Assembly: GCA_000004985.1 (NCBI GenBank)
Contig: GG738878.1
Source of the DNA: Naegleria gruberi
Taxonomy: Eukaryota
Length of the DNA stretch: 64,000 nt
Reading direction: 5' to 3' (one strand)
Shown here piece by piece: positions 29,076 through 39,756 of this stretch. The first letter of the stretch is position 1. The number at the start of each line of letters is the position of its first letter. The notes under the pieces were generated by a model. The model was not told where the DNA came from. It ran no database searches and saw only the letters and a program-made list of their open reading frames with translations. The position numbers and the translations under genes were made by a program.

Positions 29076-29783
29076 TTACAAAGCTTGAACAGTATTAATA
29101 ACCTTATCCAAATCATTAACCTTCTTATCAACAACACTTGTTGCCTGATTAACAATTCCATTAGCAGCATTTGAAATATTATCAGCAGCTTGTTCAACCT
29201 TCTTTTGAACTGAATCAGTCACTTGATTAATCTTTGCATTGATTGCTTCGGTAATTTGCTTTTCCTTCTTTTGATATTCTTGTTCAAGTTTCTTGACAAT
29301 ACTTTCAATTTGCTTCTTGAGTTGAGCTTCAATCTTTTCCTTAGTCTTTTCGAATTGAACTTTGAGTTTATCCTTTAATTGAACTGCCTTCTTGGAAATT
29401 TCACCTTTAATCTTGTCAACTTGTTGTTTGGCAATTGTGCTGACTTTGGAGAAAACTTCCTTTGCTTTGGCTTCGACTGCCTTCTTGACTTTATTCTTGG
29501 TTTCGGCGAATTTCTTACCTAAAAATTGTTTCTTAGCTTCAACGAATTCGGCTACTTTATCCTTAACTCCATTAATTCCCTTTCCAAGATTAGTTTTGAG
29601 ATTTTCACCAATCTTTTTCAATTCATCGAGGAATTCAGTATCAGCTTCCAATGAATCAGCTTCTAAGGAGAGTGCACTCAATCCTCTGGCATTAAGTGAA
29701 ACTGCTGCTTGGGTGTTTCCAATAATGAGCGCAAGAATGCAGACGAAAGTAAGAGCTAATACAAGTTTGAATGTTGTTGACAT
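29076..29783 (-). CDS. Secreted lysine-rich amphipathic helical-repeat protein (apolipophorin/LEA-like), 235 aa.
   Basis: Signal peptide MSTTFKLVLALTFVCILALIIGNTQA is followed by repetitive K/E/A/V-rich heptad/11-mer-like helices (KAVEAKAKEVFSKV..., KLKVQFEKTKEKIEAQLKKQIE...). Confidence 0.55.
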   Translation of the reverse strand: MSTTFKLVLALTFVCILALIIGNTQAAVSLNARGLSALSLEADSLEADTEFLDELKKIGENLKTNLGKGINGVKDKVAEFVEAKKQFLGKKFAETKNKVKKAVEAKAKEVFSKVSTIAKQQVDKIKGEISKKAVQLKDKLKVQFEKTKEKIEAQLKKQIESIVKKLEQEYQKKEKQITEAINAKINQVTDSVQKKVEQAADNISNAANGIVNQATSVVDKKVNDLDKVINTVQAL

Positions 29784-31162: not shown

Positions 31163-32697
31163 ATGACAAACCAACAACAAGATGGTGGAGTAATTAACAC
31201 CACCTTCTCATCACCTCCAAACCAACAGTTTCGTATAAATTCACCACCTTCTCTCACTAACCTGACAAGTCAAACTTCATCTCAAGACACAATGCTTGCT
31301 GACTCACCAACCAAGATCAATAACAGTTCTCTTAATAGAAGAGAGTCCTCCACTCAAAAATCTACAACTAAAAGTTTACCATCCTCATCCAAAACTCCAA
31401 GAAGCTCCTCAGTTACAGGTTTCCATTCGAGAAACTTTCGTATATATACATGCTGTGGTATTCTAGAGCTGAATTGCTTGAAAATGACAAGTTTCCTTGC
31501 CTTGATCGTTAGTTTATTTGCTTTTGCATCCTTGATTGTGATCATTAGTGTAAACTATTCGATTGTTGCAGGTTTCAAAGCAACATTAGCAAATTTAGAC
31601 ACTGACGGAACTTATTACAGAGAATTAATGAAGTTATCTGCACGTGCTGCAGTCACAGCTGAATATAACAGAACATTGTCATTGGAATATGTCAATTTGT
31701 ACAATAATTATTACTATTTATACTATGTAGATTTAAACGCAACCATTGCAAATGTTCCTGCTTCAGTGCTGTATTGGAATCAACACAACATGTTGAGAGA
31801 CGATGTCAAATCCAGAAGAGCTGTCAAGATGGAAATCACCATGATGGTTCAAGTGACAAGTGGCAACTATTCTGCAGCTTTACAAACTCTCGATTCAGCT
31901 CAATACAAAGATTTATTAACAGGTTACCAGGAAGAAGTTCAAAGTATCTTTGATTATGCCGATAACATGAAAGAACAAAGTGCAAATCTCGATTTGGCAA
32001 CCACAACTGCTGCACTGATCATAGCCTGCACTTCCATTGTAATTGTGGTTCCTGTTCTGATTGTGTTTATTGTGTTGAGTGTCAAGAAAGATAATTCGAA
32101 AGAGAAACAATTGAGACAAGTGAAGAAATACATGATTATGGACACGATTAATGATCCTTCAGTGGTGGAAAAGTTTAAAGATTTTTGCAAACAAGAGAGA
32201 AGTGAAGAGAATTTTGCATTATTGGAAAAGATTAACGAATATAAGAAATTGTGTGAAAGAAGTTTCGATATTCAGGTTTTCTTATTCGATACTGATGTTT
32301 TGAGTAGTTCAGATCAATTTTCTGAGATGACTTCGTCGAGTAATGATGATTCTTCCAAGAAGAAGAACAAAGCAAAAAGGGATATACTGAAAAGGATTTA
32401 TTGGAAATTGAAAAGAAGAAATTCGAAATTGCATTCGAAATTTATTCAGAATTTTTGGATGTTCGTGGTGATCGTTCAGTGAATATCAGTAAGGCATTTG
32501 CTGATAATGTGAAACAACACTTGGATTATTTCGCAAAGGGAGAAAACGAATCCATTCCAGAAAGTTTATTCGAAAGTATTGAATACGAAATGTGTGTCTT
32601 GATGATGGACACTCACCACAGATTCAAACAACACTTGGAATTGCAAATGAAAGAAAAGAAACAAATCTTGTCTTCTCTCAAGAAATCCAAAAAGTAA
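31163..32697 (+). CDS. Transmembrane RGS-domain protein, paralog 1. The frame is broken by a 1-nt deletion at about 32373 and continues as ORF 32401..32697.
   Basis: Ser-rich N-terminus, a CCGILELNC motif, a TM helix, an extracellular region, a second TM, then an RGS domain (FKDFCKQERSEENFALLEKINEYKK ... EIYSEFLDVRGDRSVNIS...MMDTHHRFKQ). Compared with paralog 2 (gctaaaaaggg), this copy reads gcaaaaaggg, one nucleotide short. Confidence 0.6.
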
Positions 32698-33320
32698 ATC
32701 TCCACAATTATATTCGAAAGGGTTGTTTACATGTTATTATCACTTGATAAATTCACAGCTTTTGATATCTAAATTACAAGATTCTTGACTACAGGACTGA
32801 AGATTAATTGAGTTTATTCGATTCATCTAGTAAGGAGAAAGTGTCAAGCGTTTAGATCCCTTTTGCTAAAAAGTTTATTGGCAACGAAACATTGATTCCT
32901 CTCCGAAGAAAATGCTAAAACAAATACTAGTCCGCAAATACAAAATTCAACATGATTCGAATAACTTTTGTATTACTGATTGGACTAATGATTCTAAGAA
33001 ACAATGATTCTCTTGAGTAACAATCACAGCAACGGGTTTTTGATACTACTCAGTGCATCTATTATTTTTCAACACCATTTTCCTTATTAATGTTGCACTT
33101 TCTTTAAATGAGTAATCTTTCTGTTTTAATACGAAAGGTCCTACATCGAAATCTGTCAAATGTTGGAATTTGAATAACTCTATGGTTTCTCTGTATACTT
33201 TCGTGGCAAGACTCTCTTCAATTGATTTCAAAACAAACCATCAGTTGCCACAAACAACCGTTCATATGAAAGATTTCTCATAGTTTCGAAACACATCAAA
33301 ACATCAAAAAAAAACACAAC

Positions 33321-34874
33321 ATGACAGGTACAACAATCGAAATGCTAGATAGTAGTGCTACGAACATTAATACTTCCACAACTAGCTTTTCCTCCAATCA
33401 AATCAACAGAATCAACTCTCCACCTTCAGTCAACCTGACCAGTTTGACCTCTTCACAAGATTCCATGATTCCAACATCACCAACCAATAATTCCAACTCT
33501 ATGAACAGAAGAGATTCCACTCACAAATCCACAACTGGTAAAAGTTTACCATCCTCATTGAAAACACCAAGAACTTCATCTGTTACTGCTTTCCATTCGA
33601 AAAACTTTCGTATACATACATGTTGTGGCATTCTAGAGCTGAATTGCTTGAAAATGACAAGTTTGGCAGCACTTGTTGTTAGTTTATTCGCATTTACTGC
33701 CTTAATTGCAATCATTAGTTTAAACTATTCAGTAGTTGCCACCTATCACTCAAGTTTAGAAACTTTAGAAACTTCTGGAACTTATTACAGAGAATTGATG
33801 AAATTATCTGCACGTGCTGCAGTCACAGCTGATTATAACAGAACCTTGTCATTGGAATATGTCGACTTGTACAATAGTTATTTTAAAGAGTATTATGTAG
33901 TAATGAATAATTTAATTGCAAACGTTCCTCCTTCAGTGCTGTATTGGAATCAACATAACATGTTGAGAGAAAATGTCAAATCAAGAAAAGCTGTCAATAT
34001 GGAAGTTGCCATGATGTCACAAGTCACAAATGGAAATTATACAGCAGCTCTCAGATCCCTCGATTCAGATCAATACAAAGATTTGCTAACAGGTTATGAA
34101 GAAGAAGTTCAAAGTATCATTGATTATGTCGCCGACCTTAAATATTCGAATGCAGAAATGGATTTGGCAACCACAACTGTTGCCTTGATTATTATTTGCA
34201 TTTCTCTGGCAATTGTTATTCCAGTTCTGATTGTATTTGTATTATTGAGTGTTCAGAAAGATAATTCGAAAGAGAAACAATTGAGACAAGTGAAGAAATA
34301 CATGATTATGGATACGATTAATGATCCTTCTGTGGTGGAGAAGTTTAAAGATTTTTGCAAACAAGAGAGAAGTGAAGAAAATTTTGCATTGTTGGAAAAG
34401 ATTAATGAGTATAAGAAATTGTGTGAAAGAAGTTTCGATATTCAGGTTTTCTTATTCGATACTGATGTATTGAGTAGTTCAGATCAATTTTCTGAAACAA
34501 CAACATCCAGTACTGAAGACGCATCCAAGAAGAAGAACAAAGCTAAAAAGGGATATACTGAAAAAGATTTAATGGAAATTGAAAAGAAGAAATTCGAAAT
34601 TGCATTCGAAATTTATTCAGAATTCTTGGATGTTCGTGGTGATCGTTCAGTGAATATCAGCAAGGCATTTGCTGATAATGTGAAACAGCATTTGGATTAT
34701 TTCGCAAAGGGAGAAAATGAATCCATTCCAGAAAGTTTATTCGATAGTGTGGAATACGAAATGTGTGTCTTGATGATGGACACCCACCACAGATTCAAAC
34801 AATTTATGGAAGTTTCCCTCAAGGAAAAGAAACAAATTCTTTCAACATTGAAGAGAAAAACTGTAAAAAAGTAA
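33321..34874 (+). CDS. Transmembrane RGS-domain protein, paralog 2 (intact, 517 aa).
   Basis: Same architecture as paralog 1 (about 80% identity) with an uninterrupted ORF and a complete RGS domain. Confidence 0.65.
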   Translation: MTGTTIEMLDSSATNINTSTTSFSSNQINRINSPPSVNLTSLTSSQDSMIPTSPTNNSNSMNRRDSTHKSTTGKSLPSSLKTPRTSSVTAFHSKNFRIHTCCGILELNCLKMTSLAALVVSLFAFTALIAIISLNYSVVATYHSSLETLETSGTYYRELMKLSARAAVTADYNRTLSLEYVDLYNSYFKEYYVVMNNLIANVPPSVLYWNQHNMLRENVKSRKAVNMEVAMMSQVTNGNYTAALRSLDSDQYKDLLTGYEEEVQSIIDYVADLKYSNAEMDLATTTVALIIICISLAIVIPVLIVFVLLSVQKDNSKEKQLRQVKKYMIMDTINDPSVVEKFKDFCKQERSEENFALLEKINEYKKLCERSFDIQVFLFDTDVLSSSDQFSETTTSSTEDASKKKNKAKKGYTEKDLMEIEKKKFEIAFEIYSEFLDVRGDRSVNISKAFADNVKQHLDYFAKGENESIPESLFDSVEYEMCVLMMDTHHRFKQFMEVSLKEKKQILSTLKRKTVKK

Positions 34875-36112: not shown

Positions 36113-38207
36113 ATGTCACTCTCAGAATACGTACGTCGGGAAGATTTAAAAACACTTTATGCTCTTCCTATGAAGGAAGCAAGTAAAAAATTAGGAGTGA
36201 GTGAAAGTAGTTTGAGAAATATTTGTAGAAAACACAACATTGAACGATGGCCATGTATGTAAATTACTTTACAATAATATATTTAATACTATTTAATAAT
36301 ATTTAATAATAATATTTAATAATATTTAAAAATTACAAAAAATAATTGAATCGTTCCAAGATCGTAAATTTCAACAATTAGACGCTCACATTGCCTCATT
36401 GCAAAATGTCGAAGTTTCACAACAATCTCAACAACAAAAAGAAATGATTGAAAGTTTATTAAGAGCTCGATCAATTCTCGAAGATAATCCAAACATGACA
36501 TGTGAAATGGCAATTCTACAAGCTAACAAACAGTTACTGGCCAATAATCCACAAAATGGATCTCAGGTTCAAGAAATGACAGCTCAAATGATGAACATGA
36601 TGAATCAGAATCCATCAATGGATGATGCTTCTCCAACCATTAGTGAAAATTCATCACTTCATCATTCAATGGGTGGTGGTGTTGGTAATAATAATAATAA
36701 TTTGGATAATTCTTCAAATCAAATTCAACGAAGTCCAATGCATCAGCATCATCATCATGGAACAACGTTTGTGCCAAGTTATCCAACTCATGTTACTTCA
36801 CATTTGAGTGCTAGTGCTGCATTGAGTGCAATGGCTAGACGAAAGAAACATCCACAATATGTTTCGAATAATGCAGCTTCGTCTTCTATATTAGATACTT
36901 TGGATCAACAATCTAGATCTACATCCATGTTTTCAGTTCAATCCAATCCAACAATTGAAATTCAACAACCAAATAGATTTACAGATTCTGATGTCATGAA
37001 TCCACAACATCATGCCTATTTGCATCATCAGACAATTCTCAATTCTCATAATCCACATATGAGAAGTGTTTCCTCTGATAATATTTTCCCATCAGCATCG
37101 AATGGAATGATTGGTGTTGGTAATATGCAAGGTAATTCTTCAATGGAAATGATAACAAATATGGGTGAGAGAAGAGGAGCTGTTTCACATAGAGATTCAT
37201 TGGCTTTTGGACAGGGATTTGTGTTGGTCAATCAGGGAAGTGGTGGTTCAGTGATGGACGAATCGAATGAGTCCTCCACCACAGCAAGTGAACAACAATC
37301 AGTTTATTATAATGGTGAACTATCTCCACAACAGCAATACTCTCAACAACAACACAATAATGGAATGATGTTTAATGAGTATCAATTATTGGATCCAAAT
37401 GTGAAATCACGACACATTTCTCTATTGAAACAACAGAGAAGACCACCTCCACAACCACCACGTTCACTCTCCACTTCAACTGCACTCTCACCAATGCCCA
37501 ATTTAAATTCCTCTCCTCAACTGCAGCCACAATATCAATCACCAAATGCCTCCAATAATAGAAGTAGCAATTCCATGATGCAAGATCTTCAAATTAATAA
37601 TAGAAAATTCACATCGACAACGACACCACCTTCCTCCTCACACAATTCATCACTGAGAAGTAGTTCAGCATCTCACACAGATTTTGATTCACCTTTTATA
37701 GATATTATGCAATCAGATCAGGAGGGAGATATTTCAATGGGTGATAATTTCCTTTCTTCACCTTCAATTCTAATTAATAATAGATTATCTGATGATCAAA
37801 ATTCAACTCATCCTTTCCAAAGAACAAGTCAATCTTCACTAACGAGTCAAGTTTCATTGAATAGATATTTACTAGATTCACCTAATCATCACGATTTTGA
37901 TTTTGTTTCAAAACAAGAACAACGTGAGAATAATCATAGAATCTTGGAAGCTTTGAGAATAACACCAACTACACCATCAAATAATTCTGTTGGTAGTAGT
38001 GTTAATAATCTGTATGATCCTCTATTTGATAGTAATGCCTTCTTAAGAGGAAGAACAAGTTCAGTTTCGTCTACTTTCTCAGATGGTATGTCAACTCCAA
38101 TGACTCCAACAGGAGAAGGTGGAAGATTGTCAAATGCATCAAATTTAAGTTTAAGACTTTCACACGGCATGAATTCTGATTTTAATTTTTCCAATAACAA
38201 TTATTAA
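36113..38207 (+). CDS. RWP-RK domain transcription factor. Two exons, 36113..36253 and 36361..38207, with a 107-nt intron. The long C-terminus is Q/N/S-rich.
   Basis: Exon 1 encodes MSLSEYVRREDLKTLYALPMKEASKKLGVSESSLRNICRKHNIERWP and ends at GTATGT. The acceptor ...ttccaag|at completes the Y codon, so the spliced product reads RWPYRK, the diagnostic RWP-RK motif split exactly by the intron. The track start at 36399 is a TTG. Confidence 0.75.
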
Positions 38208-38343: not shown

Positions 38344-39566
38344 TTAAACTTCAGTCTTGAGGTGAACAATTTCAGGACCAACTTCATCATATTGTTCCCT
38401 TGTAACACACAAATCAAAGAATGAAGACAAGGTAGCTCTAATACTGCCACCAATCCATGCCAATTGATCTCTCCTATCTCCTGCAACAATACGAATATCC
38501 ATTGAAGATGGTGCCTTCTCTGTCATTTCCTTTGTTAATCTCTCTTCAATACCTTCAAATTTTGTTGAACCACCAGCAAGAACTGAATTACGATACAATG
38601 TCTTACGAACGTCGATTGGTGAACGACTAATTGATTCAAACAAGAGTTCATGTATACCAGATGATTCCATACCAATAAGTTGAGGATAGAAGAGAACTTC
38701 TGGTGCACGGAATCTTTCAGAATTGATTGTAATTGCTGTACCATCAGGTAAGTTGTAAACTTGATCCAAAGATGAACTTTCCTCTGCTTTTTCCATTTCT
38801 TCATCATAATCCAATGGAATGTAACAGTGTTTTTCTTTCATTTGTCTAATAATTTCATGTTCGGCTGTTGTGTGGAAATTGTGGTCCTTTTCACTTAACA
38901 TTTTCATTAAATATTCTGTCACATCTCTTCCAGCAATATTCAATCGGAGTACAGCATGAAGCATGACTGTATTTTAATGAAAATCCAAGAAATTATAATC
39001 GAAACAATTATTCGAAACACAAAATCTATCAAAGGACATTATACAAATAAAAACATACCAAGACCATCATACATTGGAACACAATGAGCTGCACCATCAC
39101 CAACATCCAAACAAACACCTGTCAATCTACCAGAAGCCATCAATGACAATGCTCCTTGAATACCCAAATAAAAAGCAGGAACTTCAAACTTTTCCATTAA
39201 AATTTCACAAACTTTCTCACGTTGTACTTTTGGTGTGAAAGGAGCATCTGTTAATAAAAGTGGTTGTTCCTCAGGTGCTAATTTTAATTCATTGTAATAG
39301 GTGTGAGCAATAACAGATTCCCAGTGATCATAATTTTCAATTGTTCCGTGTACCATTGGATAGTCTAATTGCAAAACACCTCTCTTGGATTGAGCAGAAT
39401 GTCCAACATAATGTTCTCGGTTGACTGTACCAACAAGTACTGAAGTATCTTTTGCTTTACCAATCATATTGGAAAATACGGCACTTGGTGATTGATAACC
39501 AGCAACACCAGCTTTGATGAAGCCAGATCCATTATCGATAACTACTGTTGGAAGTTGTGATGCCAT
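38344..39566 (-). CDS. Actin-related protein, Arp1/centractin-like. Two exons: about 39060..39566 and 38344..38966. The 92-nt intron is at about 38967..39059 (display numbering uncertain by 1 nt).
   Basis: MASQLPTVVIDNGSGFIKAGVAGYQ ... LTDAPFTPKVQREKVCEILMEKFEVPAFYLGIQGALSLMASGRLTGVCLDVGDGAAHCVPMYDGL, then GTATGT...acag, then V-MLHAVLRLNIAGRDVTEYLMK...ISERFRAPEVLFYP...WIGGSI.... This aligns along its full length with actin and Arp1. The likely true start is the second Met (MASQ...). Confidence 0.8.
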
Positions 39567-39756
39567 TTTTTTTGATGGAAACTTTTGACAGGTGTTATTA
39601 TTTAGATGATGAGTGAAATCCATAAATATTAAAACAATGAAGAAATAAAATTGAAAAGATTTTGAGAAAATAAAATCTTAATCAATTCTTCCAATACACA
39701 ATAGTTAAATTAATTATTCAAATAAATTTTAAATTTGAATAATTTATAATAATAAT

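What the first reader, a model, noticed from the sequence alone, without database searches (positions are those of the whole stretch)
31163..34874. Tandem paralogous RGS-domain transmembrane proteins, the upstream copy with a 1-nt frameshift just before the RGS domain
Two adjacent same-strand genes share about 80% identity and an unusual architecture. It runs Ser-rich N-terminus, CCGILELNC (palmitoylation-like Cys cluster), TM, extracellular loop, TM, then a cytosolic RGS domain. In copy 1 the run gcaaaaaggg is one base shorter than the gctaaaaaggg of copy 2. This moves the RGS domain into another frame (ORF 32401-32697). Either copy 1 is a decaying duplicate that retains only the membrane part, or an assembly indel sits in the A5 run.
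Basis: seen in the sequence. Interest (0 to 1): 0.55.

Follow-up and report, generated by a model that had tools for sequence, protein, structure and literature searches.

The report
Tandem sensor-RGS receptor genes, one frameshifted
Two neighbouring Naegleria gruberi genes encode membrane proteins that join a bacterial-type extracellular sensor to a G-protein "off-switch" (RGS) domain; one copy has a single missing base in the reference sequence, which is either very recent or a sequencing error, so the defect itself is ordinary.

Summary
The window is Naegleria gruberi. ORF 33321-34874 (copy 2, 517 aa) is 100% identical to an annotated N. gruberi protein. Copy 1 (31163-32697) is 78.5% identical in protein and 81.8% in DNA, and lacks exactly one base after 32373.

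Two corrections:
- The lesion lies inside the RGS domain, in a disordered insert between helices 3 and 4, not before the domain.
- The repaired ORF is 511 aa, not 520.

The public model of copy 1 hides the frameshift behind an implausible 20-nt "intron" (32340-32359).

Copy 1 shows no decay. It has one lesion only, and dN/dS downstream of it is 0.12. The cytosolic halves of the two copies were homogenised by gene conversion. The frameshift is therefore very young or an assembly error. Only reads or cDNA can decide which.

The parts
31163..32373 (+). Copy 1, coding sequence up to the lesion (aa 1-403 plus two bases of codon 404). Covers the N-terminus, Cys motif, TM1, sensor ectodomain, TM2, RGS helices 1-3 and most of the insert.
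   Evidence: ORF list, alignment to copy 2, repaired translation
32369..32381 (+). Frameshift site, AAAGC|AAAAAGGG. One base is missing after 32373 relative to copy 2 (AAAGCTAAAAAGGG, 34539-34552).
   Evidence: The repeat register changes from 2170 to 2171 at 32374.
32374..32697 (+). Copy 1, coding sequence downstream of the lesion in the shifted frame (RGS helices 4-9 and C-tail; stop codon at 32695-32697). It contains the invariant G-alpha contact residues equivalent to copy 2 N445, D487 and R491.
32374..32482 (+). Out-of-frame tail of the 439-aa product as the assembly reads (35 aa after K404, RDILKRIYWKLKRRNSKLHSKFIQNFWMFVVIVQ, then a stop).
32340..32359 (+). The 20-nt GT..AG 'intron' used by the public gene model of copy 1 (P0002, 504 aa) to step over the frameshift. 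I read it as a modelling artefact.
   Evidence: Splicing it out reproduces P0002 exactly. It aligns as coding sequence with copy 2. The mean N. gruberi intron is 203 bp (PMC8296547).
31445..31474 (+). Copy 1 juxtamembrane Cys motif YTCCGILELN (T, first C and G nearly invariant in the family).
31484..31555 (+). Copy 1 TM1
   Evidence: hydropathy, coordinates
31556..31999 (+). Copy 1 extracellular four-helix-bundle sensor domain
32000..32077 (+). Copy 1 TM2
32132..32293 (+). Copy 1 RGS N-terminal part (helices 1-3, SEEN motif)
   Evidence: Pfam RGS positions 5-41, coordinates
32075..32634 (+). Copy 1 side of the low-divergence tract shared with copy 2 (34245-34805), inferred to be a gene-conversion tract. 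The frameshift lies inside it.
   Evidence: Third-position differences are 26/180 here against 77/240 in the preceding 720 nt (Fisher P 3e-5). dS is 0.22-0.40 here against 0.59-1.2 elsewhere, while dS to outgroups is saturated everywhere.
33321..34874 (+). Copy 2, intact gene (517 aa plus stop), identical to an annotated N. gruberi predicted protein (P0001).
33615..33644 (+). Copy 2 Cys motif HTCCGILELN
33654..33725 (+). Copy 2 TM1
33726..34169 (+). Copy 2 extracellular four-helix-bundle sensor domain (three N-x-S/T sequons)
34170..34247 (+). Copy 2 TM2
34302..34805 (+). Copy 2 RGS domain (aa 328-495), including the disordered Ser/Lys-rich insert at aa 382-411 (34464-34553)
   Evidence: Pfam RGS E 8e-8, AF2, alignment to RGS10 and RGS4

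Best explanation
The locus is a lineage-specific tandem pair of Naegleria gruberi genes from a heterolobosean family of receptor-like RGS proteins.

Each protein has, in order:
- a disordered cytosolic N-terminus;
- a juxtamembrane Cys motif;
- TM1;
- an extracellular four-helix-bundle sensor domain, about 150 aa, homologous to a bacterial periplasmic histidine-kinase sensor;
- TM2;
- a cytosolic RGS domain that keeps the G-alpha contact residues.

Inferred mechanism: like the 7TM-RGS proteins of plants and Naegleria, the protein places a GTPase-accelerating domain at the membrane under the control of an extracellular input, and so tunes how fast G-alpha subunits are switched off. N. fowleri has self-activating G-alpha subunits.

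Copy 2 is intact. Copy 1 differs from an intact gene by one missing base next to an A-run, inside the disordered insert of the RGS domain. Everything else in copy 1 shows continued purifying selection, and its cytosolic half was homogenised with copy 2 by gene conversion. Copy 1 is therefore a working gene, or was one until very recently. The frameshift is either a consensus error in the reference assembly or a very young null allele, possibly allele-specific or acquired in the laboratory strain. I put these two at roughly equal odds. It is not a long-decaying duplicate.

Shown: the sequence facts, domain homologies, fold similarity, selection signature and the gene-model artefact. Inferred: topology, ligand sensing, GAP regulation, and whether the lesion is real.
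For: Organism and genes: copy 2 is 100% identical to an N. gruberi protein, and copy 1 corresponds to the 504-aa model on the same contig.

The lesion:
- It is a single 1-nt indel.
- The public model equals copy 1 with 32340-32359 removed.

Selection and divergence:
- dN/dS is 0.07 upstream and 0.12 downstream of the lesion within the cytosolic part.
- dS is 0.22-0.40 there, against 0.59-1.23 in the 5' part and 3.1 in the tail.
- Comparisons with outgroups are saturated in all segments.
- Third-position divergence differs between the tract and the preceding 720 nt (Fisher P 3e-5).

Phylogeny: the copies are sisters in both halves (bootstrap 187/200 and 199/200). Their relative distance to the nearest other member is 0.71 in the ectodomain part and 0.27 in the RGS part.

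Age of the lesion: neutral evolution of the downstream segment for 50% or more of the time is rejected (P about 0.01).

RGS domain:
- Pfam match E 8e-8.
- S351, N354, N445, D487 and R491 are invariant in 15 homologues.
- The SEEN and VN motifs align to RGS10 and RGS4.

Sensor domain:
- AF2 ectodomain model, pLDDT 82.
- A profile search of 1.8 billion proteins found 93 hits. The strong ones carry RGS (29 of 44), and the weak ones are histidine kinases and PAS or GGDEF proteins.
- hhalign of the Naegleria module against the bacterial sensor segments gives probability 99.0, E 8e-18 over 174 columns.
- The bacterial domain is widespread, with at least 600 loci.

Topology: two hydrophobic segments with positive-inside charges, and sequons in the ectodomain.

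Context: N. fowleri has self-activating G-alpha subunits, 28 7TM-RGS proteins and 79 other RGS proteins (PMC9283941).
Against: - No reads, cDNA or second N. gruberi assembly could be reached, so whether the missing base is real is undecided.
- The dN/dS argument rests on only about 13 substitutions downstream of the lesion, and the Poisson calculation is rough.
- Recent gene conversion could itself have refreshed a dead copy 1 and erased signs of decay. That would make the pseudogene look younger than it is.
- The bacterial alignment used for hhalign was selected from hits to the Naegleria profile, so that comparison is partly circular.
- Ligand binding, dimerisation, GAP activity and expression are all untested.
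Confidence: 0.7

Rival explanations
1. Copy 1 is an established pseudogene, or a neofunctionalised truncated gene, that has long produced only the membrane and sensor part plus a third of the RGS domain. It might act, for example, as a decoy or dominant-negative partner of copy 2.
For: As assembled, the ORF stops at 32482 after a 35-aa out-of-frame tail. The product would lack N445, D487 and R491, so it could not act as a GAP. Bacterial 4HB sensors work as dimers, so a truncated partner could in principle heterodimerise (established knowledge; not tested here). Gene conversion could mask the age of the lesion.
Against: The untranslated downstream frame is intact for 107 codons and stops at the homologous position. 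Its dN/dS is 0.12, and three of its four replacements are conservative (L/M, E/D, I/V). Neutrality for half or more of the time is rejected. There is no in-frame ATG near the start of the downstream segment that could express it separately.
Confidence: 0.12
2. The public gene model is right. A real 20-nt spliceosomal intron (32340-32359) restores the frame, giving a 504-aa protein.
For: The 20 nt begin with GT and end with AG, and their removal gives an open frame identical to P0002.
Against: The '20-nt intron' aligns codon for codon with coding sequence of copy 2 and of all other homologues, and its removal deletes the conserved KKKNK stretch. The mean N. gruberi intron is 203 bp (PMC8296547). 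An actin-family gene in the same window has an ordinary intron of roughly 70-100 nt. None of the 14 homologues needs an intron here.
Confidence: 0.02
3. The frameshift is real but is bypassed during expression by programmed +1 ribosomal frameshifting or by transcriptional slippage on the A-run.
For: The lesion sits next to a homopolymer, A5.
Against: From general knowledge, not tested here: A5 is far shorter than the runs of 8-9 A or more that give efficient transcriptional slippage, and no recoding system is known in Naegleria. No stimulatory element was sought or seen. Copy 2 and all homologues are encoded in a single frame.
Confidence: 0.01

Closest known systems
7TM-RGS proteins (Arabidopsis AtRGS1; the 28 seven-transmembrane RGS proteins of Naegleria fowleri, PMC9283941)
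   Same: A membrane-embedded, receptor-like N-terminal part is fused to a C-terminal cytosolic RGS domain. They occur in organisms whose G-alpha subunits self-activate, so that regulated GTP hydrolysis is the control point. The genus is the same.
   Different: Here there are two transmembrane helices, not seven, and no GPCR-like bundle. Input would come from a soluble four-helix-bundle ectodomain of bacterial type. The RGS domain carries a conserved insert of about 30-45 aa between helices 3 and 4.
Bacterial periplasmic four-helix-bundle sensor domains of chemoreceptors and histidine kinases (Tar/Tsr, Vc1313-LBD 8bsa, TorS 3i9w, HK9 3va9, NarQ)
   Different: The output is a eukaryotic RGS domain rather than a kinase, MCP or GGDEF module, and there is no HAMP domain. 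No match to Pfam 4HB_MCP_1, TarH or CHASE3 models appeared for either the Naegleria or the bacterial segments. N-glycosylation sequons are present. The ligand is unknown.
Canonical R4/RZ-type RGS domains (RGS4, RGS10)
   Same: SEEN motif, the Asn of the helix 5-6 loop (VN), and the D..R pair of helices 7-8 are all conserved. There is also a Pfam PF00615 match.
   Different: Sequence similarity is weak (E 0.005-0.04 to PDB chains, and only after deleting the insert). The domain has a long disordered insert, and it is tethered to the membrane by a transmembrane helix rather than by an amphipathic helix or lipid anchor.
Young unitary pseudogene or reference-assembly homopolymer indel
   Same: A single 1-nt deletion adjacent to an A-run in an otherwise intact ORF of a tandem duplicate.
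   Different: There are none of the secondary lesions or relaxed constraint that define an established pseudogene.

Membership tests
RGS domain (Pfam PF00615) | Sequence match above the curated Pfam gathering score | tested here: met
   Copy 2 scores 33.1 bits against a cutoff of 23.9, E 8e-8, aa 333-492. The two halves of copy 1 score 21.9 and 19.8 bits separately, each below the cutoff only because the domain is split.
RGS domain (Pfam PF00615) | Conserved G-alpha switch-contact residues (RGS4 S85/E87/N88, N128, D163/R167 equivalents) | tested here: met
   S351, N354, N445, D487 and R491 are invariant in 15 homologues. The alignment to RGS10 and RGS4 places SEEN and VN correctly. Residue equivalence to RGS4 numbering is from my own knowledge of RGS4.
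RGS domain (Pfam PF00615) | All-helical nine-helix fold | tested here: inconclusive
   AF2 predicts helices across aa 315-516 with pLDDT 81-92. The RGS part was not compared with solved RGS structures.
RGS domain (Pfam PF00615) | GTPase-accelerating activity on a G-alpha subunit | not testable with these tools
   This needs recombinant protein and a GTPase or transition-state binding assay, as in PMC9283941.
7TM-RGS (AtRGS1-like) | Seven transmembrane helices N-terminal to the RGS domain | tested here: not met
   Each copy has only two hydrophobic segments, and AF2 shows two membrane-length helices flanking a bundle.
7TM-RGS (AtRGS1-like) | RGS domain cytosolic and C-terminal to the membrane part | tested here: met
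   Domain order; 6 K/R in the 20 residues after TM2.
Bacterial-type 2TM four-helix-bundle sensor domain | Antiparallel helical bundle between two TM helices | tested here: met
Bacterial-type 2TM four-helix-bundle sensor domain | Sequence homology to a bacterial sensor family | tested here: met
   Library-wide hmmsearch E 1e-8 to 1e-4 to bacterial HK N-termini. hhalign probability 99.0, E 8e-18. One hit is named as an Ignavibacteriales sensor histidine kinase. At least 600 bacterial loci were found.
Bacterial-type 2TM four-helix-bundle sensor domain | Match to a curated Pfam 4HB family (4HB_MCP_1, TarH, CHASE3) | tested here: not met
   No such hit appeared for the 15 Naegleria ectodomains at E up to 10, nor for the 20 bacterial segments at E up to 0.01.
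Bacterial-type 2TM four-helix-bundle sensor domain | Ligand binding and dimerisation | not testable with these tools
   No ligand or oligomer prediction was made.
Established pseudogene | Disabling lesion in the reference sequence | tested here: met
   1-nt deletion after 32373.
Established pseudogene | Relaxed constraint (dN/dS near 1) or additional lesions downstream | tested here: not met
   dN/dS is 0.12 downstream. There is no further stop or indel, and the stop codon is at the homologous position.
Established pseudogene | Lesion confirmed in independent reads; no full-length transcript | not testable with these tools
   No N. gruberi reads, ESTs or second assembly were reachable.
Spliceosomal intron (public model of copy 1) | Length within the species' range, and sequence not homologous to coding sequence of paralogues | tested here: not met
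   It is 20 nt against a mean of 203 bp, and it aligns as codons with copy 2 and all homologues.

The most novel reading that the evidence does not exclude
The family is a previously undescribed class of eukaryotic receptor-GAPs. A bacterial-type periplasmic four-helix-bundle chemosensor, possibly acquired by horizontal transfer and since expanded in Naegleria and Willaertia, would be wired through a single transmembrane helix directly to an RGS domain. An extracellular ligand would then set the rate at which self-activating G-alpha subunits are switched off, with no 7TM receptor involved. On this reading the frameshifted copy 1, if real, would be a natural sensor-only decoy able to pair with copy 2.
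Probability: 0.35. Interest if true: 0.6.

Novelty: new variant of a known kind. Interest (0 to 1): 0.35.

Why it matters
The frameshift matters only for annotation. The public protein for copy 1 (504 aa) contains an invented junction (..SEMTSS|KEEQSKKGY..) and lacks the conserved KKKNK stretch. It should be replaced either by a 511-aa product or by a pseudogene flag once reads have been checked.

The architecture matters more. Naegleria regulates G proteins mainly at the GTP-hydrolysis step, through receptor-like RGS proteins. Here, part of the large pool of 'other' RGS proteins uses a bacterial-style two-transmembrane helical sensor instead of a 7TM bundle. That is a second, independent way of coupling an extracellular signal to a GAP. 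It is also an example of a bacterial sensor module recombined with a purely eukaryotic output domain.

It gives a small, soluble ectodomain that could be expressed and screened for ligands. It also points to a widespread bacterial sensor domain (motif DEVLTMSARMAA) that matched no Pfam model.

Tried and rejected
Independent evidence for or against the missing base:
- An exact look-up of the 439-aa product found nothing on record.
- The N. gruberi paralogues P0004 and P0005 are not in the gene-position index.
- A DNA pattern spanning the lesion, allowing either length, found 0 hits in JGI metagenome contigs.
- No protein closer to copy 1 than copy 2 is exists among 5.8 billion clusters.
- A literature search for a re-sequenced NEG-M genome gave nothing usable.

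Searches and tools that failed or gave nothing:
- The Fritz-Laylin 2010 genome paper is not held.
- A PDB sequence search with the full-length family profile gave no hit at E 1e-3. RGS10 and RGS4 appeared only after deleting the insert.
- Single-sequence Pfam scans of the ectodomain gave only noise.
- PF24820 (diguanylate-cyclase-like sensor) matched 3 of 45 weak hits but none of the 20 bacterial segments used for comparison, so I did not use it as the name of the domain.
- The first bootstrapped tree with Biopython timed out. I replaced it with a lighter NJ script.
- The maximum chi-square breakpoint scan on third positions was significant but picked a very broad segment, because both gene ends are highly divergent. 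I used fixed 90-nt windows and a Fisher test instead.

Ideas checked and dropped:
- The gene next to the homologue P0007 on an ENA contig is not a tandem paralogue.
- Neighbouring window genes are unrelated to the pair.
Full report
**Identity of the locus.**
The window has about 33% G+C and is densely packed with genes. ORF 33321-34874 (copy 2, 517 aa) is 100% identical to a 'predicted protein' of Naegleria gruberi on a 395-kb contig. The second-best hit, on the same contig, is a 504-aa N. gruberi protein with 77% identity. That protein turns out to be the public model of copy 1.

**The observation.**
A DNA alignment of the two regions shows collinear homology from a few tens of bases upstream of the ATG to the stop codon. 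There is no similarity in the flanks. Over aligned codons the copies share 81.8% of nucleotides and 78.5% of residues. The direct-repeat register is 2170 nt up to 32373 and 2171 nt from 32374 onward. Copy 1 reads AAAGC-AAAAAGGG where copy 2 reads AAAGCTAAAAAGGG. As assembled, copy 1 therefore gives a 439-aa ORF (31163-32482) with a 35-aa out-of-frame tail, and the homologous reading frame continues from 32374 to 32697. Adding one base after 32373 gives an uninterrupted 511-aa protein that stops at the homologous position.

**Where the lesion sits.**
Pfam aligns RGS profile positions 5-41 to copy 1 residues 328-395, upstream of the lesion, and positions 46-108 to the downstream ORF. In copy 2 the whole domain matches at E 8e-8, above the gathering score. 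The AlphaFold model of copy 2 has a confidently helical RGS region interrupted by a disordered stretch at 382-409. Alignment to RGS10 and RGS4 places this stretch between helix 3 (..EYKKL) and helix 4 (..EIYSEFL). The frameshift therefore splits the RGS domain inside an insert. It does not precede the domain. Residues N445, D487 and R491, invariant in 15 homologues, correspond to the G-alpha contacts N128, D163 and R167 of RGS4 (this equivalence is from my own knowledge of RGS4). All three lie downstream of the lesion, so the 439-aa product could not act as a GAP.

**The public gene model.**
Removing 32340-32359 (GTAATGATGATTCTTCCAAG) from copy 1 reproduces the 504-aa database protein exactly. 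I read this 20-nt 'intron' as a device of the gene predictor for stepping over the frameshift:
- The 20 nt align codon for codon with copy 2 and with all intronless homologues. Removing them replaces the conserved KKKNKAKKG with KEEQSKKG.
- The mean N. gruberi intron is 203 bp (PMC8296547).
- An actin-family gene in the same window has an ordinary intron of roughly 70-100 nt.

**Decay or not.**
Nei-Gojobori estimates between the copies:

| Segment (copy 2 aa) | dS | dN/dS |
|---|---|---|
| 1-95, N-terminus | 1.23 | 0.22 |
| 96-310, TM1-ectodomain-TM2 | 0.59 | 0.30 |
| 311-408, cytosolic, upstream of the lesion | 0.40 | 0.07 |
| 409-495, downstream of the lesion | 0.22 | 0.12 |
| 496-517, tail | 3.1 | 0.10 |

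- Comparisons with two outgroup genes recovered from ENA metagenome contigs (L001 and L002) are saturated at synonymous sites in every segment. The low dS of the cytosolic part is therefore not caused by constraint on synonymous sites. It indicates a gene-conversion tract of about 560 nt (32075-32634 in copy 1, 34245-34805 in copy 2).
- Third-position differences are 26/180 inside the tract and 77/240 in the preceding 720 nt (Fisher P 3e-5).
- The copies are sister genes in both halves (bootstrap 187/200 and 199/200). Relative to the next paralogue they are much closer in the RGS half (distance ratio 0.27) than in the ectodomain half (0.71).
- Downstream of the lesion there are about 7.5 synonymous and 5.5 non-synonymous differences. 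One replacement (E475D) is clearly derived in copy 2, L418M and I477V cannot be polarised, and only H495F looks derived in copy 1, whose H is shared with paralogue P0005.
- A rough Poisson model gives P about 0.01 for so few replacements if copy 1 had drifted neutrally for half of the time since homogenisation. The data fit 0-25% of that time.
- Copy 1 is therefore not a decaying duplicate. Either the lesion is young or it is not real. One caveat is that conversion from copy 2 could itself have refreshed a dead copy.

**Can the two remaining possibilities be separated?**
Not with the data I could reach:
- The 439-aa product is not on record in any other assembly.
- The N. gruberi genome is not in the gene-position index.
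- A pattern spanning the lesion has no match in metagenome contigs.
- No closer homologue of copy 1 exists in the protein collection.

A one-base loss next to an A-run is typical both of replication slippage and of consensus errors. My judgement, which is inference only, is roughly even odds, with recoding or a real micro-intron at a few per cent together.

**What the proteins are.**
Each copy has exactly two strongly hydrophobic segments. Charges follow the positive-inside rule, with 3 K/R in the 20 residues before TM1, 0 after it, 1 before TM2 and 6 after it. The 150-aa segment between them carries N-x-S/T sequons. Modelled alone it folds with pLDDT 82, and around 90 in the core, as a helical bundle continuous with both TM helices.

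Evidence that this segment is a bacterial-type sensor:
- A profile of TM1-ectodomain-TM2 from 15 homologues was searched against 1.84 billion representatives and found 93 proteins.
- Of the 44 strongest hits scanned, 29 carry RGS and no other Pfam domain appears among them. Every strong, RGS-bearing hit whose name I sampled comes from N. gruberi, N. lovaniensis, N. fowleri or Willaertia magna.
- The weaker hits (E 1e-8 to 1e-3) are mostly histidine kinases with PAS, GAF, GGDEF or cyclase modules. One of them is an Ignavibacteriales sensor kinase.
- The N-terminal sensor segments of 20 weak hits align to the Naegleria module with hhalign probability 99.0 and E 8e-18 over 174 columns. Motifs match outside the TM helices: YRELMKxSxRxAV with YDEVLTMSARMAA, KAVxxE with KLVAME, and GNYSxAxxxLDSxxYK with GxxxxAxxxLxSxEYxxQK.
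- The bacterial domain is widespread. At least 600 loci were found in Planctomycetota, Cyanobacteria, Deltaproteobacteria, Pseudomonas and others. It matched no Pfam model in my scan.

**Likely mechanism (inferred).**
N. fowleri G-alpha subunits include self-activating forms, and the RGS domains of its 7TM-RGS proteins accelerate their GTPase. That paper counts 28 7TM-RGS proteins and 79 further RGS proteins but does not describe a two-TM sensor class (PMC9283941). By analogy with AtRGS1 and with bacterial chemoreceptors, ligand binding to the ectodomain would be transmitted through TM2. The model shows TM2 as one helix from residue 250 to 311. The signal would change the availability or activity of the tethered RGS domain. 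The nearly invariant TCCG motif immediately before TM1 is a reasonable S-acylation site. The conserved basic and acidic insert (KKKNKxKKG[FY]TEKDL) has no assigned role. None of this was tested.

**Known or new.**
Both genes are already in public databases as predicted or RGS-domain proteins, so the genes are not new, and a single frameshift in a draft assembly is ordinary. The two-TM four-helix-bundle sensor fused to RGS is a variant of the receptor-RGS idea. I could not find it described. No paper in the searchable library combines RGS with such a sensor, and the G-protein surveys that cover Naegleria do not mention it. That library is incomplete, so prior description elsewhere cannot be excluded.

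**Verdict.**
The frameshift is of low interest. The architecture is of moderate interest to people working on the evolution of G-protein signalling and on bacterial-type sensors in eukaryotes.

Noticed in passing
window 32075-32634 and 34245-34805: The cytosolic and RGS halves of the two copies are far more alike at synonymous sites (dS 0.22-0.40) than the rest (0.59-1.2; tail 3.1), with a sharp 3' boundary near codon 495. This points to a gene-conversion tract of about 560 nt that contains the frameshift site.
   Followed up: yes
L003-L082 (GTDB bacterial genomes); proteins P0060-P0104: A widespread bacterial periplasmic sensor domain with the motif [YH]xDE[VL]LTMSA...WExRY...LVAME..AF..V..G....A...L.S.EY..QK sits at the N-terminus of histidine kinases and of PAS or GGDEF proteins. 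At least 600 loci were found in Planctomycetota, Cyanobacteria, Deltaproteobacteria and Pseudomonas. It matched no Pfam family in 20 members scanned.
   Followed up: partly
window 38344-38964 and 39039-39623, minus strand: An actin-family gene is split into two ORFs (the 3' part matches Pfam Actin at E 5e-53). Together they look like one gene with an ordinary intron of roughly 70-100 nt. This is a useful contrast with the 20-nt 'intron' in the model of copy 1.
   Followed up: partly
P0009 (N. gruberi paralogue): The public model has an aberrant C-terminal extension of about 40 aa (PSPSFLYQNPSVLDIPTRELFIFCMWMRLLG...) that all other family members lack. This is probably another gene-model error in the same family.
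   Followed up: no
P0024 (Willaertia magna, 1302 aa): The two-TM sensor-RGS module is followed by a second hydrophobic-bounded region and a long C-terminal part with no Pfam hit. It is either a fused gene model or a multi-module receptor.
   Followed up: no
P0106, P0108, P0025/P0105: ENA metagenome contigs encode proteins at least 90% identical to N. gruberi members of this family, so close relatives of NEG-M are present in public metagenomes. None carries an orthologue of copy 1 or copy 2.
   Followed up: partly
window 36399-38207 (+) and 29076-29783 (-): The first is a 602-aa Asn/Gln/Ser-rich low-complexity ORF with no Pfam match, immediately downstream of copy 2. The second is a 235-aa ORF with apolipoprotein-like helical repeats, below the Pfam cutoff (41 bits against 90).
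   Followed up: no
P0061 (EukProt record gene11359-4527_t, 223 aa): A short eukaryote-labelled protein carries the bacterial-type version of the sensor motif (YDEVLTMSARMAAA) between two TM segments and has no output domain. The source organism is not identified.
   Followed up: no
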